From: Roseateles sp.
Lineage (GTDB): Bacteria > Pseudomonadota > Gammaproteobacteria > Burkholderiales > Burkholderiaceae_C
Reading direction: 5' to 3'
Assembly (NCBI GenBank): GCA_052436255.1
Contig: JBQVNP010000011.1
Span: 3,572-67,571 of the forward strand
Length of the DNA: 64,000 nt
Shown: piece after piece, positions 21,056 to 53,051 of the stretch
Numbering within the stretch: position 1 is the first letter of the stretch
Layout of the letters: each line of letters opens with the position of its first letter
Translations under genes and position numbers: made by a program
Notes under the pieces: model-generated
The model's input: only the letters and a program-made list of their open reading frames with translations
Database searches by the model: none
What the model was told of the DNA's origin: nothing

Positions 21056-21751
21056 ATGCTGACGCGCTCCAAGCCTATGCCCCGCGGCAAGTGCTTCACC
21101 CAGAAGCCCCGCGCTCCCATGTCCCGCTCCCCGCTGCGCGCCACGGCGCCGGCCAAGGCCGAGGTGCCGCTGCTCAAGATGCGGAAGTGCCCAGTCAAGA
21201 AGGGCGGCTGCGGCGCCAGCTTCCGCCCGCTGCGCCACGGCCAGCTCGCCTGCCTGGACTGCGCCGTGCCGGTCGGCAAGTGGCTGGCCACCAGCAAGGC
21301 CAAGGCTGCCCACAAGGAAGACATCAAGCAGACCAAGGCAGCGCTGGAGAAGCTCAAGCGCGTGCCCGAGCTGAAGAAAGAGGCGCAGAAGGCCTTCAAT
21401 GACTGGGTCCGCGCCCGCGATGCCGGCAAGGCCTGCTTTGTCTGCGGCCGCACGCTGGTGCTGGGCGGCGTTGGCGGTGGCTTCGATGCTGGCCACATCC
21501 GCTCGCGCAGCAACGCCGACAACCTCCGCTTCGACGAGCGCAACGTCCACGGCCAGTGCAAGCCATGCAACGCCGTCGGCGCCACGAAGGACTGGCAGAT
21601 GCGCGAGGCCGCCGACCGCCTACTTGGCCCCGAGGTGGCCGCGGAGCTCTACGCCGACAACAAGCCCATCAAGTGGCAGCGCGACCAGCTCCGCCAGATC
21701 CGCGACGAGAGCCGCGCCAAGCTGGCCGCGCTGAAGAAGTCCAGCCGTTGA
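21056..21751 (+). CDS. ninG: NinG (Rap) family endonuclease
   Basis: EAQKAFNDWVRARD...CFVCG...DAGHIRSR...LRFDERNVHGQCKPCN. Confidence 0.9.
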   Translation: MLTRSKPMPRGKCFTQKPRAPMSRSPLRATAPAKAEVPLLKMRKCPVKKGGCGASFRPLRHGQLACLDCAVPVGKWLATSKAKAAHKEDIKQTKAALEKLKRVPELKKEAQKAFNDWVRARDAGKACFVCGRTLVLGGVGGGFDAGHIRSRSNADNLRFDERNVHGQCKPCNAVGATKDWQMREAADRLLGPEVAAELYADNKPIKWQRDQLRQIRDESRAKLAALKKSSR

Positions 21752-23837: not shown

Positions 23838-24245
23838 ATGACAAAGCACAAGGTATCCGAACTGACCGGCACGCTGCTGGATGCGGCTGTGGCCCACTCA
23901 AACGGCTGGCCGTATCGCTTGCGCGATGGCAGTTGCGAGGTCGTCGCATCAGTGCCCTTGTACAGCGATCCACCGCCTTCTTTCGGGGAGAGTGGCGGTG
24001 AAATGGACGTGTTCGTTTCGTTCTGTCCATCAACAAGATGGTCGCAGGGAGGCCCGCTCATTGAGCGCGAGCGCATCACCCTGCATGTAGCGGCTGGACG
24101 AACCATTGCCTACGTCGGTGCGGAGTTCATGTCCGACGAGGTGACCTCGTATGTAGCGTCCGGTGACGGCGAGACGCCCCTAATCGCCGCCATGCGCGCC
24201 TTCGTCACCGCCAAGCTGGGCGAAGAGGTGGAACTCCCGGCTTGA
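23838..24245 (+). CDS. NinX/DUF2591-like protein
   Basis: KVSELTGTLLDAAVA...PSTRWSQGGPLIERERI...GETPLIAAMRAFVTAKLGEEVELP. Confidence 0.8.
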   Translation: MTKHKVSELTGTLLDAAVAHSNGWPYRLRDGSCEVVASVPLYSDPPPSFGESGGEMDVFVSFCPSTRWSQGGPLIERERITLHVAAGRTIAYVGAEFMSDEVTSYVASGDGETPLIAAMRAFVTAKLGEEVELPA

Positions 24246-24269
24246 CGCAACCCCTAGCAGCGGTATGAT
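24242..24269 (+). promoter_or_regulatory. pR'-like late promoter
   Basis: TTGACG-16 nt-TATGAT overlapping the upstream stop codon. Confidence 0.7.
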
Positions 24270-24403
24270 CCGCGCCGCAACCACCGCGAGACGACGACCG
24301 CCGCCACACGGCACGATCTTCTGAGCCTCGGCTCTCCATCCGGCGCAATCCGCCTAAGCAGGCTAGCCCTGCGACAAGTCGATGGAAACGCTCGCCCCTA
24401 CCG

Positions 24404-24434
24404 AACCCGCCCACTGAGGCGGGTTTGTCGTTTC
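24404..24434 (+). terminator. tR'-like terminator
   Basis: AACCCGCC-CACTGA-GGCGGGTT followed by TGTCGTTTC. Confidence 0.6.
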
Positions 24435-25075
24435 AGAGTCCACCCAGAGCGTTCGCGCCGCTGGGTTTGAAGTCCTCGGCTCACTGCTGAGGCTGCCCGG
24501 GTTTATCGCCGGGCGTTGGAACTGAGCCGCTGCTGACCTGCGGGCGCGGCCAGGATGATCGGCAGGACCGGACACCTAGGGATCAAGGCGGGCGCTCACC
24601 GGGCGCGCCTGAACGCCTCCCGCCATACCGTGCCAAGTAGCCTCAGAGCGTCATAGCTTGGGCCAAGCCCTGCCGAAATGGCCCCGCACAGAGTAAGCGG
24701 GTGGCAGCCGGGGAAGACCGGCAAGAACAACTGCGGTGTAGCGCATCGGTAGCGCGACGGGCTCATAACCCGAAGGTAGGTGGTTCGATTCCACCCTCCG
24801 CAACCAGGGCAGACTCGGAATCTGGTGGAAAGGGCAGGGGGCGGGAAACCGTGTGACCCCATGCGCGCCGAGTGGAGAAGAACCCAGATTGACGGCCGGG
24901 AAAGACCGGCGCCCCCATGCATGGCGCTTGACTGGTGGGGGTTCCCGCCGGTGGCCAACAGGCGCCATGCATGGGGGTGAACTCCCTGCACCGCTGATGG
25001 TGAAACATGAGACCGGCCCCGATTGCTGTGCGTCCAAGGGTCGGCACTGAACAGCACCGCATAGCAACACCCTCT
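24435..25075 (+). ncRNA. Candidate large structured ncRNA region embedding a tRNA
   Basis: No convincing ORF; many long stems (24477-24483/24523-24529, 24912-24927/24962-24977, 25023-25032/25058-25067), GAAA loops, a repeated motif. Confidence 0.5.
24732..24806 (+). tRNA. tRNA-Met(CAT), initiator-like, phage-encoded
   Basis: Cloverleaf; GGGCTCATAACCC anticodon arm with three G-C pairs; GGTGG-TTCGATT-CCACC T arm; encoded CCA. Confidence 0.9.
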
Positions 25076-25090
25076 TCAACACTGGCCGCC

Positions 25091-25330
25091 ATGCTCTACG
25101 ACTACCGCAACGTCCAGCCGGGCGCCACGGTTTGCAACCTGGACACCAGGGAGCGGATTAACAAGGTGGTCGCCATTGACACCGAGGCCGGCGAAGTAGA
25201 GGTCACTGTCGAACCGCTGCGCATCGTTGATGACAGCTTCGTCACCCAGCGCCTGCGCTTCGTCGCCGTCTGGCCGATCCTGGACCTCGGCATTCCGTGC
25301 GCCTTTCACTGCCACGGTCGCCTGAACTGA
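25091..25330 (+). CDS. Hypothetical protein (79 aa)
   Basis: MLYDYRNVQPGATV... Confidence 0.6.
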   Translation: MLYDYRNVQPGATVCNLDTRERINKVVAIDTEAGEVEVTVEPLRIVDDSFVTQRLRFVAVWPILDLGIPCAFHCHGRLN

Positions 25331-25472
25331 TCACAGCGCCTGTTCATTCCCCTCAGCCAAAAGGGGCCGCCCTGGGCGCCAATACGGGGCGGTAACTCCG
25401 GCGCTGCGCTGCCCGGCGCTCAAGAAACTGGCGGGGCAGCACCGGCAGGCTCCAGCCCTCCGGGGTAGACCG

Positions 25473-52974: not shown

Positions 52975-53051
52975 GGTGGCTGTAGCTCAGTTGGTAGAGT
53001 CCAGGATTGTGATTCCTGTTGTCGCGGGTTCGAGTCCCGTCAGCCACCCCA
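52975..53051 (+). tRNA. tRNA-His(GTG) with encoded G-1
   Basis: G-GTGGCTG...CCAGG-ATTGTGATT-CCTG...CAGCCAC-C-CCA. Confidence 0.97.

What the first reader, a model, noticed from the sequence alone, without database searches (positions are those of the whole stretch)
24807..24910. Pseudoknotted module directly 3' of the tRNA, with a repeated GCCGGGAA(A)GACCGGC hairpin
Seen: ACTCGG (24813-24818) pairs with CCGAGT (24868-24873) and AATCTGG (24819-24825) with CCAGATT (24884-24890), in crossing order. They enclose GGGG-GCGG-GAAA-CCGT-GTGA-CCCC. The module ends in GCCGGGAAAGACCGGC (24895-24910), and a near-identical GCCGGGAAGACCGGC (24707-24721) ends the segment just before the tRNA. Established: some phage tRNAs are flanked by self-cleaving ribozymes (theta/HDV-like). 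I could not map an HDV, twister or hammerhead core onto it. Inference: a repeated RNA domain, processing signal or new ribozyme class.
Basis: partly seen in the sequence, partly recalled or inferred. Interest (0 to 1): 0.58.

Follow-up and report, generated by a model that had tools for sequence, protein, structure and literature searches.

The report
Pan-phage RNA hairpin flanking a tRNA
The repeated hairpin on both sides of this prophage tRNA-Met gene belongs to a small, strongly conserved RNA motif that very different phages place next to tRNAs and other folded RNAs; I found it in no catalogue or paper, its job is untested, and the proposed pseudoknot or ribozyme between the two copies has no support.

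Summary
Copy 1 of the hairpin is really 16 nt, at 24707-24722.

**What the hairpin is.** The two hairpins are not a private repeat. Each is a ~23-nt unit: a U-G-R-C-R flank, a 5-bp stem, a GAAAGA-type loop, then usually A. I found this unit in more than 200 very diverse IMG/VR phage contigs and in isolated phages of Gammaproteobacteria and Cyanobacteria.
- The stem co-varies strongly while the loop and flank stay fixed.
- It lies on the same strand as tRNAs, often 2-8 nt before one.
- Copies recur at about 140-300 nt intervals.
- In this 5.7-Mb genome it occurs only at these two sites.
- It has no match in Rfam 15 and no paper in the held library.
- Earlier notes of this scan recorded the same hairpin on other DNA.

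**The pseudoknotted module.** The module at 24807-24889 has no detectable homologue, so its pairings cannot be tested by covariation.
- Helix B and the inner hairpin are thermodynamically plausible. Helix A is not.
- The module fails the theta (minimal HDV-like) core test.

**Best reading (function inferred).** The hairpin is a boundary signal on the RNA that marks and protects the ends of RNA units cut from the late-operon leader. It is probably recognised by a conserved host factor.

The parts
24702..24723 (+). Motif copy 1: 5-nt flank (UGGCA), 5-bp stem with GGAAGA loop (hairpin 24707-24722), then A. It ends 9 nt before tRNA-Met.
   Evidence: model R1 scores it 29.3 bits; hairpin predicted in the fold.
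24732..24806 (+). tRNA-Met (anticodon CAU) with encoded CCA.
   Evidence: ARAGORN; Rfam RF00005, 63 bits.
24807..24889 (+). Private to this prophage as far as searched.
   Evidence: No homologues.
24890..24911 (+). Motif copy 2: 5-nt flank (UGACG), 5-bp stem with canonical GAAAGA loop (hairpin 24895-24910).
   Evidence: model R1 scores it 32.2 bits; pairing probability 1.0.
24911..24978 (+). Very stable extended hairpin (about 29 bp in two segments) starting 1 nt after motif copy 2. It occupies the position where other phages carry a tRNA or tRNA-like unit.
   Evidence: Inverted repeat I1; -57.7 kcal/mol, z -6.9.
24242..24430 (+). Context: a sigma-70-like promoter (24242-24269), then a short leader ending in a terminator-like hairpin with a T-run (about 24405-24430), right after the NinX gene. 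This resembles a lambda late promoter followed by its early terminator.
   Evidence: promoter; sequence; NinX and NinG assignments.

Best explanation
The two hairpins are copies of a ~23-nt cis-acting RNA motif shared by very many unrelated phages: a U-G-R-C-R flank, a 5-bp stem of free sequence closed by G-C, a GAAAGA-type loop, then usually A followed by G-poor positions. In this lambdoid prophage they sit in the ~760-nt untranslated leader of the late (packaging) operon. They bracket a unit made of tRNA-Met plus an 83-nt structured spacer.

Most likely mechanism (inferred): the hairpin works on the transcript as a boundary signal. It would be recognised by a conserved, probably host-encoded, factor through its invariant loop and flank. 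It would mark where folded RNA units are cut out of the long precursor. After RNase P cuts at the tRNA 5' end, it would remain as a terminal stem-loop that shields the neighbouring fragment from exonucleases.

The spacer's helix B and inner hairpin are ordinary local folding of that spacer.
For: Shown:
Nearly all hits carry the same 5-nt flank and a 3' A, although their surroundings range from 23% to 71% GC.
2. Structure is selected. A pattern that left the 3' strand free gave 66 of 104 non-redundant hits with all four free pairs formed, against about 2% expected, and more than 35 different stems. Formally, 80.8% of cells pair against 57% in shuffles (0 of 500 shuffles reach it); the covariation score is 0.52 against 0.17; slid controls give 24-38%.
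3. It is linked to tRNAs on the same strand. In 26 of 126 instances an ARAGORN tRNA starts 2-8 nt downstream. T-loop-like sequence is found downstream in 39 of 179 instances and upstream in 30 of 179, against 2 of 179 on the opposite strand. It precedes the first tRNA of several arrays, and variants with compensated stems occur inside arrays.
4. It recurs as punctuation. Of 34 successive same-strand pairs, 21 are 137-304 nt apart. The window's spacing is 188 nt, mEp390's 212 nt and Alexa's 205 nt.
5. No neighbouring protein is shared. The commonest ORF cluster within 2.5 kb, a CI-type repressor, is in 15 of 98 loci. This points to a host factor or an RNA-only role.
6. It is specific to phage DNA here. 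The full motif occurs only at these two sites in the own genome. A phylum sample of 401 genomes gave 12 pattern hits in 8 genomes against 6 control hits.
7. In the window it lies on the strand of the flanking genes, downstream of a promoter-like site.
Against: No RNA ends, cleavage or binding partner have been observed for any member. The function is inferred only from position.
- The motif also occurs just before intrinsic terminators (23 of 179) and before ribosome-binding sites (19 of 179), so it is not purely a tRNA leader element.
- A simple protective stem-loop would not need an invariant loop and flank.
- Copy 2 in the window is followed by a long hairpin, not by a tRNA.
- Both window copies depart slightly from the consensus: one loop change in copy 1, and G instead of A at the last flank position and at +1 in copy 2.
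- T4, T5, P1, lambda, P22 and HK022 show no clear instance, so I found no experimental data for it.
Confidence: 0.5

Rival explanations
1. boxB-like antitermination or RNA-polymerase/Nus-binding element. The nascent hairpin would bind a factor, or the polymerase itself, and make transcription of long untranslated stretches (tRNA arrays, leaders) resistant to Rho or intrinsic terminators.
For: - A 5-bp GC-rich stem with a purine-rich GA-type loop resembles lambda nut boxB (own knowledge).
- In mEp390 and Medea1 the motif lies downstream of, and on the same strand as, the CI repressor gene, where lambda has nutL. CI repressors are the commonest neighbour.
- It often precedes untranslated units and the first tRNA of arrays.
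- A subset is followed within 9-32 nt by a terminator.
Against: - No boxA-like partner was noticed.
- N-type proteins and their boxB sequences are lineage-specific, whereas this loop and flank are constant across phages of different phyla.
- No shared neighbouring gene exists.
- In the window both copies lie downstream of the terminator-like site at about 24405-24430.
- HK022, the model for RNA-only antitermination, lacks the motif.
Confidence: 0.17
2. The module 24807-24889, with or without the terminal hairpin, is a self-cleaving ribozyme that trims the tRNA 3' trailer: a divergent HDV-like/theta ribozyme or a new class built on the A/B pseudoknot.
For: - It starts right after the tRNA CCA.
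- Helices A and B cross, with contiguous 5' strands as P1 and P2 do in HDV-like ribozymes.
- Helix A's 3' strand is followed by GG, about 6 nt, and then a C just before helix B's 3' strand. This resembles the P1.1, L4 and J4/2 layout of P4-less theta ribozymes (for the published segmentation).
- Such a crossing 6+7-bp pair is rare in shuffles (0.3%).
Against: - A strict descriptor (3-bp P3, L3 of 4-14 nt, P3' abutting P1') finds nothing. A fit requires a 36-nt L3 carrying a stable hairpin and a weak, chance-level P3.
- There is no G at +1 with a closing G-U pair, no U-CC-NCGY L3 and no CUAA J4/2.
- P1 would begin 6-7 nt after the CCA.
- Helix A has a pairing probability of 0.14 and the module's z-score is -0.94.
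- No homologues were found.
- Rfam ribozyme models give no hit.
- A helix abutting the hairpin is not enriched in the family (55% against 40-45% in controls).
Confidence: 0.06
3. Acceptor-stem mimic. The hairpin followed by A and C-rich positions would imitate a tRNA minihelix with an ACC(A)-like tail, and so be cut at its 5' base by RNase P or engage another enzyme that reads tRNA 3' ends. This would be a specific version of the processing idea, with RNase P as the universal partner.
For: - RNase P is universal, which would explain the spread across phyla.
- The first stem pair is mostly G-C. Position +1 is A in 76%, and ACC is the commonest following triplet (19 of 106). G is almost absent at +2 to +4.
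- Small hairpins with a GAAA-type loop and an RCCA tail are known RNase P model substrates (own knowledge).
Against: - ACC follows in only 18% of instances, so the tail is not conserved as CCA.
- This does not explain the invariant loop or the U-G-R-C-R leader.
- In the window the tails are AAG (copy 1) and GCC (copy 2).
Confidence: 0.12
4. DNA-level element. The hairpin would form in single-stranded DNA and mark the ends of a mobile tRNA cassette, serving as a recombination or transposition site.
For: - The tRNA-Met is bracketed by two direct copies 188 nt apart.
- The 80 closest terminase relatives (about 70% identity) and 70 NinX-bearing prophages lack both the motif and, mostly, any tRNA. 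The unit therefore looks like an acquired accessory.
Against: - No recombinase or transposase is consistently nearby.
- Strict co-orientation with tRNAs and placement before ribosome-binding sites and terminators fit a transcript-level role.
- The flanks outside the 21 nt are unrelated, and there is no target-site duplication.
Confidence: 0.06

Closest known systems
Theta ribozymes (minimal, P4-less HDV-like ribozymes at phage tRNA 3' ends; Kienbeck et al. 2024, PMC10879173)
   Same: Small phage RNA elements placed directly beside tRNAs, with tRNA-Met among the commonest partners, and proposed to process tRNA ends. The window's module shares the crossing P1/P2-like helices and a GG-spacer-C layout before the last strand.
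   Different: The conserved hairpin is a plain stem-loop, usually 5' of tRNAs. Theta ribozymes sit 3' of tRNAs and form a double pseudoknot. The window's module lacks the 3-bp P3 with 7-nt L3 core, the G at +1 with a closing G-U pair, and the CUAA junction. Theta ribozymes were reported from gut phages of Bacteroidota and Bacillota; this motif is also in phages of Proteobacteria and Cyanobacteria.
Lambda-type nut-site boxB hairpin (N utilisation)
   Same: A 5-bp GC-rich stem with a purine-rich GA-type loop in a phage transcript. Stem sequence is free while the loop is fixed, as expected for a protein-recognised hairpin. In some temperate phages the position is nutL-like.
   Different: The loop has six bases rather than five. 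A fixed 5' flank replaces boxA. The sequence is constant across unrelated phages of several phyla, whereas boxB/N pairs are lineage-specific. It is tightly linked to tRNAs. No N-like gene was identified here.
tRNA punctuation and repeat-hairpin processing (RNase P/E cuts in polycistronic tRNA precursors; CRISPR repeat hairpins cut by Cas6)
   Same: A short hairpin recurs at regular intervals between functional RNA units in one precursor, consistent with marking cut points and remaining on the products.
   Different: No dedicated nuclease gene accompanies the motif. No cleavage has been observed. The units between copies are heterogeneous: tRNAs, tRNA-like folds, other hairpins and ORF starts.

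Membership tests
Pan-phage flank-plus-hairpin motif (uncatalogued; defined here by model R1) | 5-nt single-stranded flank U-G-R-C-R directly 5' of the stem | tested here: met
   Copy 1 has UGGCA and copy 2 UGACG. In the family the positions are U 89%, G 96%, A/G 97%, C 97%, A 87% with G 9%.
Pan-phage flank-plus-hairpin motif (uncatalogued; defined here by model R1) | 5-bp stem of free, co-varying sequence, closed by G-C next to the loop | tested here: met
   Both copies carry the commonest stem. Covariation across the family is shown.
Pan-phage flank-plus-hairpin motif (uncatalogued; defined here by model R1) | GAAAGA hexaloop | tested here: met
   Copy 2 is exact. Copy 1 has one change (GGAAGA) and still scores 29 bits.
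Pan-phage flank-plus-hairpin motif (uncatalogued; defined here by model R1) | A at +1, then G-poor positions +2 to +4 | tested here: inconclusive
   Copy 1 has A at +1 but G at +3. Copy 2 has G at +1 (15% of the family) followed by C-rich positions.
Pan-phage flank-plus-hairpin motif (uncatalogued; defined here by model R1) | Same strand as, and close to, a tRNA or tRNA-like unit, in phage DNA | tested here: met
   Copy 1 ends 9 nt before tRNA-Met (the family range is 2-8 nt). Copy 2 lies 83 nt after it. The prophage context is shown.
Theta / minimal HDV-like ribozymes | Nested double pseudoknot with crossing P1 and P2 | tested here: met
   Helices A and B cross with contiguous 5' strands.
Theta / minimal HDV-like ribozymes | 3-bp P3 with a ~7-nt L3 (U-CC-NCGY), its 3' strand abutting P1' | tested here: not met
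   The strict descriptor gives 0 hits. 42 nt with a stable hairpin lie between P2 and P1'. Published segmentation.
Theta / minimal HDV-like ribozymes | G at +1 closing P1 with a G-U pair; cleavage site within about 5 nt of the tRNA end | tested here: not met
   P1 would start with A24813 paired to U24873, 6 nt after the CCA (for the family).
Theta / minimal HDV-like ribozymes | P1.1 (GG after P1') and a catalytic C opening J4/2 (CUAA-type) | tested here: inconclusive
   GG is at 24874-75 and C at 24883, just before P2'. There is no CUAA, and the partner CC is locked in the inner hairpin.
Theta / minimal HDV-like ribozymes | Mg2+-dependent self-cleavage, abolished by a C-to-U change | not testable with these tools
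   This needs in vitro transcription and a cleavage assay.
Lambda-type nut site (boxA + boxB) | boxB hairpin close to the promoter and upstream of the terminators it overrides, with boxA and an N-like protein | tested here: not met
   Both copies lie downstream of the terminator-like hairpin at about 24405-24430. No N-like gene was recognised among the neighbours. boxA was not searched for systematically.
Any Rfam 15 family (including GOLLD, ROOL, DUF3800 motifs, ribozymes) | Covariance-model match | tested here: not met
   Only tRNA reaches threshold. Nothing relevant appears at E up to 10 in 24000-25400, and nothing recurs in six other motif-bearing loci.

The most novel reading that the evidence does not exclude
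The ~23-nt hairpin would be a universal phage 'punctuation mark' read by a conserved cellular machine, for example RNase P acting on it as a minihelix, or RNA polymerase with Nus factors. It could even be self-acting. Phages of any phylum could then cut out, stabilise or safely transcribe tRNAs and other untranslated RNA units from long transcripts. That would be a new general RNA signal in phage gene expression.
Probability: 0.2. Interest if true: 0.8.

Novelty: new variant of a known kind. Interest (0 to 1): 0.6.

Why it matters
A short RNA signal with an invariant loop and flank, kept in phages of Gammaproteobacteria and Cyanobacteria and in gut and environmental phage contigs, implies a common and still unnamed interaction with the host's RNA machinery. 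Identifying the partner would explain how phage tRNA arrays and tRNA-like RNAs are expressed and matured. It would improve annotation of phage non-coding regions; at least one annotated ORF in phage mEp390 overlaps a motif copy. It could also give a compact, portable RNA part for synthetic biology. For this window in particular, the tRNA-Met unit turns out to be an accessory cassette in the late-operon leader, absent from the closest related phages.

Tried and rejected
- **Rfam 15.** Gathering and E-value scans of the window and of six motif-bearing loci found only tRNA.
- **Literature.** The 16-mer, loop and flank strings, and phrases for conserved hairpins upstream of phage tRNAs returned nothing relevant. 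The bacterial Y-RNA (YrlA) signature GNCGAAN(0-1)G does not match.
- **Homologues of the window's own module.** None were found in:
  - DNA searches of relatives and the genus;
  - searches with the downstream 107-aa protein in 400 genomes of the order, in genome contigs and in IMG/VR, and in the 5.8-billion-protein set, where it has one relative;
  - 70 NinX-bearing loci and 80 terminase relatives;
  - exact-pattern scans of IMG/VR and of metagenomes.
  
- **Promoter readings, rejected by reasoning.** With the flank as a -35 element, transcription would start inside the tRNA. The spacing does not fit a sigma-54 promoter. Stem covariation argues for a folded strand.
- **Hammerhead core** (CUGANGA ... 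GAAA) does not fit on inspection.
- **Model phages.** HK022 lacks the motif, and T4, T5, P1, lambda and P22 show no clear instance. It is very rare in complete E. coli genomes.
- **A shared neighbouring protein** does not exist.

Full report
**Context.** The window lies in a 5.7-Mb, about 66% GC genome. NinX relatives from Roseateles, Ramlibacter and Paraburkholderia place the host among the Burkholderiales. The finding sits in a lambdoid prophage:
- NinG is at 21056-21751 and NinX at 23838-24245.
- About 760 nt without credible coding follow.
- Then come a 107-aa ORF (25007-25330), an HNH endonuclease, the small terminase and the large terminase.
- The gap begins with a sigma-70-like promoter (24242-24269) and a terminator-like hairpin with a T-run at about 24405-24430. 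This looks like a lambda late promoter followed by its early terminator.
- tRNA-Met (CAU, CCA encoded) is at 24732-24806.

**Checking the observation.** One slip: hairpin copy 1 is 16 nt at 24707-24722 with loop GGAAGA. The repeat extends 5 nt upstream, so 24702-24722 and 24890-24910 share 18 of 21 positions.

The 104-nt stretch as a whole is no more stable than shuffled sequence (z -0.94). In the ensemble, pairing probabilities are 1.0 for the terminal hairpin, 0.93 for the inner hairpin, 0.55 for helix B and 0.14 for helix A. A crossing pair of perfect 6-bp and 7-bp helices arose in only 0.3% of 1000 dinucleotide shuffles of the 84-nt module.

**The hairpin is a widespread phage motif.** Only the 16-mer was fixed, yet almost all hits also carry the same 5-nt flank (U 89%, G 96%, A or G 97%, C 97%, A 87%) and an A after the stem (76%). 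G is nearly absent at the next three positions. The surrounding sequence ranges from 23% to 71% GC.

BLAST of a 30-nt instance against isolated phages found exact copies, mostly in unannotated intergenic DNA, in phages of Escherichia (mEp390), Stenotrophomonas, Acinetobacter, Pseudomonas, Cronobacter and Klebsiella. Copies differing at one position occur in phages of Xanthomonas, Pantoea and three cyanobacteria.

**Structure is under selection.** I scanned for the flank, the loop and its closing pair, forced a non-canonical base in the 5' strand, and left the 3' strand free.
- Of 104 non-redundant hits, 66 formed all four free pairs, against about 2% expected, with more than 35 different stems.
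- On that unselected alignment, 80.8% of cells pair, against 57% in shuffles (0 of 500 shuffles reach it).
- The covariation score is 0.52 against 0.17.
- All four free pairs show double-sided changes, and sliding the partner strand drops pairing to 24-38%.

So the stem is free but must pair, while the loop and flank are fixed. That is the signature of a folded strand recognised through its loop and flank.

**Where it sits.**
- In 26 of 126 instances an ARAGORN tRNA starts 2-8 nt downstream on the same strand.
- T-loop-like sequence is present within 110 nt downstream in 39 of 179 instances and upstream in 30 of 179, against 2 of 179 on the opposite strand.
- In several tRNA arrays the motif precedes the first tRNA, and variants with compensated stems lie further inside.
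- Other instances are followed within 9-32 nt by an intrinsic terminator (23 of 179) or within 70 nt by a ribosome-binding site and start codon (19 of 179).
- Copies recur: 21 of 34 successive same-strand pairs are 137-304 nt apart. mEp390 has two copies 212 nt apart, Acinetobacter phage Alexa two copies 205 nt apart, and this window two copies 188 nt apart.
- A local helix abutting the flank, which helix B would be in the window, is not enriched (55% against 40-45% at control positions).
- No neighbouring protein is shared. The commonest ORF cluster within 2.5 kb is a CI-type repressor, in 15 of 98 loci.

**Specificity.** In the window's own genome the full motif occurs only at the two sites studied. 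Covariance model R1 scores them 32 and 29 bits, against 12 bits for the next best site. A sample of 401 genomes of the phylum gave 12 pattern hits in 8 genomes against 6 for the reversed control, and most of the well-paired hits clustered in a few genomes.

**Is it known?** Rfam 15 has no match in the window or in six other motif-bearing loci. The held literature has no paper with the sequence or a matching description. HK022 lacks it, and T4, T5, P1, lambda and P22 show no clear instance, which may be why I found no experimental data.

Earlier notes of this scan record the same hairpin on other DNA, with the same conclusion: uncatalogued, function unknown. My searches were run before I read those notes and agree with them.

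**The module between the copies.** I found no homologue of 24807-24889 by any route.
- DNA searches in relatives and the genus found none.
- The adjacent ORF has no relative in 400 genomes of the order or in genome contigs, one 37%-identical relative in IMG/VR whose short upstream stretch was not analysed further, and one relative among 5.8 billion proteins.
- Exact-pattern scans of IMG/VR and of metagenomes found none.
- The 70 NinX-bearing prophage loci and the 80 closest terminase relatives (about 70% identity) lack the motif and almost always any tRNA.

The tRNA-Met, spacer and hairpins therefore look like an accessory cassette, and helices A and B cannot be tested by covariation.

**Theta / HDV-like test.** I used the published segmentation of theta ribozymes: P1 opening with G and closed by a G-U pair, a short J1/2, a 7-bp P2, a 3-bp P3, a 7-nt L3 of the form U-CC-NCGY, P1', GG, an L4 of about 6 nt, a CUAA-type J4/2 and P2'.

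The window shares the crossing P1/P2 arrangement, the GG after P1', a spacer of about 6 nt, and a C just before P2'. But a strict descriptor finds nothing. A fit requires a 36-nt L3 that contains a stable hairpin, plus a weak P3 of the kind chance supplies. P1 would start with A, 6 nt after the CCA, and there is no CUAA. I give an active ribozyme about 6%.

**Mechanism.** What is shown: a folded, strand-specific, phage-restricted, tRNA-linked hairpin that recurs between RNA units. What is inferred: it acts on the transcript as a boundary signal recognised by a conserved, probably host, factor. Two inferences follow from position alone:
- RNase P cleavage at the tRNA 5' end a few nucleotides downstream would leave the hairpin as a 3'-terminal stem-loop on the upstream fragment.
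- Copies on both sides of a unit would define and protect its ends.

Rivals are a boxB-like antitermination element, an RNase P minihelix mimic (ACC is the commonest tail, but in only 18% of instances), a ribozyme, and a DNA-level cassette boundary. The invariant loop and flank show that something specific reads the motif. None of my data say what.

**Verdict.** The hairpin is a member of an uncatalogued pan-phage RNA motif. The pseudoknot and ribozyme reading is unsupported. The function remains to be tested.

Noticed in passing
window 24911-24978 (+): Exceptionally stable extended hairpin (-57.7 kcal/mol, z -6.9; about 20 bp plus 9 bp), starting 1 nt after motif copy 2 and about 28 nt before the ATG at 25007. 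Its length would suit RNase III. It is not tRNA-like by Rfam.
   Followed up: partly
window 24242-24430 (+): Promoter-like site (10 of 12 consensus matches) immediately after NinX, then a leader of about 150 nt ending in a terminator-like hairpin with a T-run, like the lambda late promoter and its early terminator. No Q-like antiterminator gene was recognised upstream. Part of this leader (24297-24426) is 74% identical to a locus in another species of the genus (G005).
   Followed up: partly
window 24700-24915 versus L280-L349 and L367-L446: The closest terminase relatives (80 loci, about 70% identity) and 70 NinX-bearing prophages lack the hairpin motif, and nearly all lack a tRNA here. The tRNA-Met unit therefore appears to be a recently acquired accessory cassette.
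   Followed up: yes
L157 (phage mEp390, JQ182729.1) about 2287-2314 and 2500-2526: mEp390 carries two motif copies 212 nt apart, downstream of its CI repressor. The first copy lies inside annotated ORF mEp390_036 (243 nt), which may therefore be non-coding RNA rather than a gene.
   Followed up: partly
L158 (Acinetobacter phage Alexa, MT375042.1) 2376-2909: A 530-nt unannotated stretch after the integrase gene holds two motif copies 205 nt apart and ends in an intrinsic terminator. It is a candidate structured non-coding RNA gene.
   Followed up: no
L218, L225, L253, L260 and relatives (IMG/VR): A group of contigs carries an 87-91-nt tRNA-shaped module (closing stem plus a canonical T-arm). 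Its 3' strand runs straight into the motif flank, and a tRNA follows the hairpin.
   Followed up: no
window 24732-24806: The prophage tRNA-Met has a U1-A72 first pair and a U-U mismatch at acceptor positions 6 and 67. It is only 78% identical to the host's own tRNA-Met gene.
   Followed up: no
window 52976-53051 (+): A second tRNA gene (tRNA-His, GUG) lies near where the phage-like + strand gene block ends. It may be the prophage attachment site.
   Followed up: no
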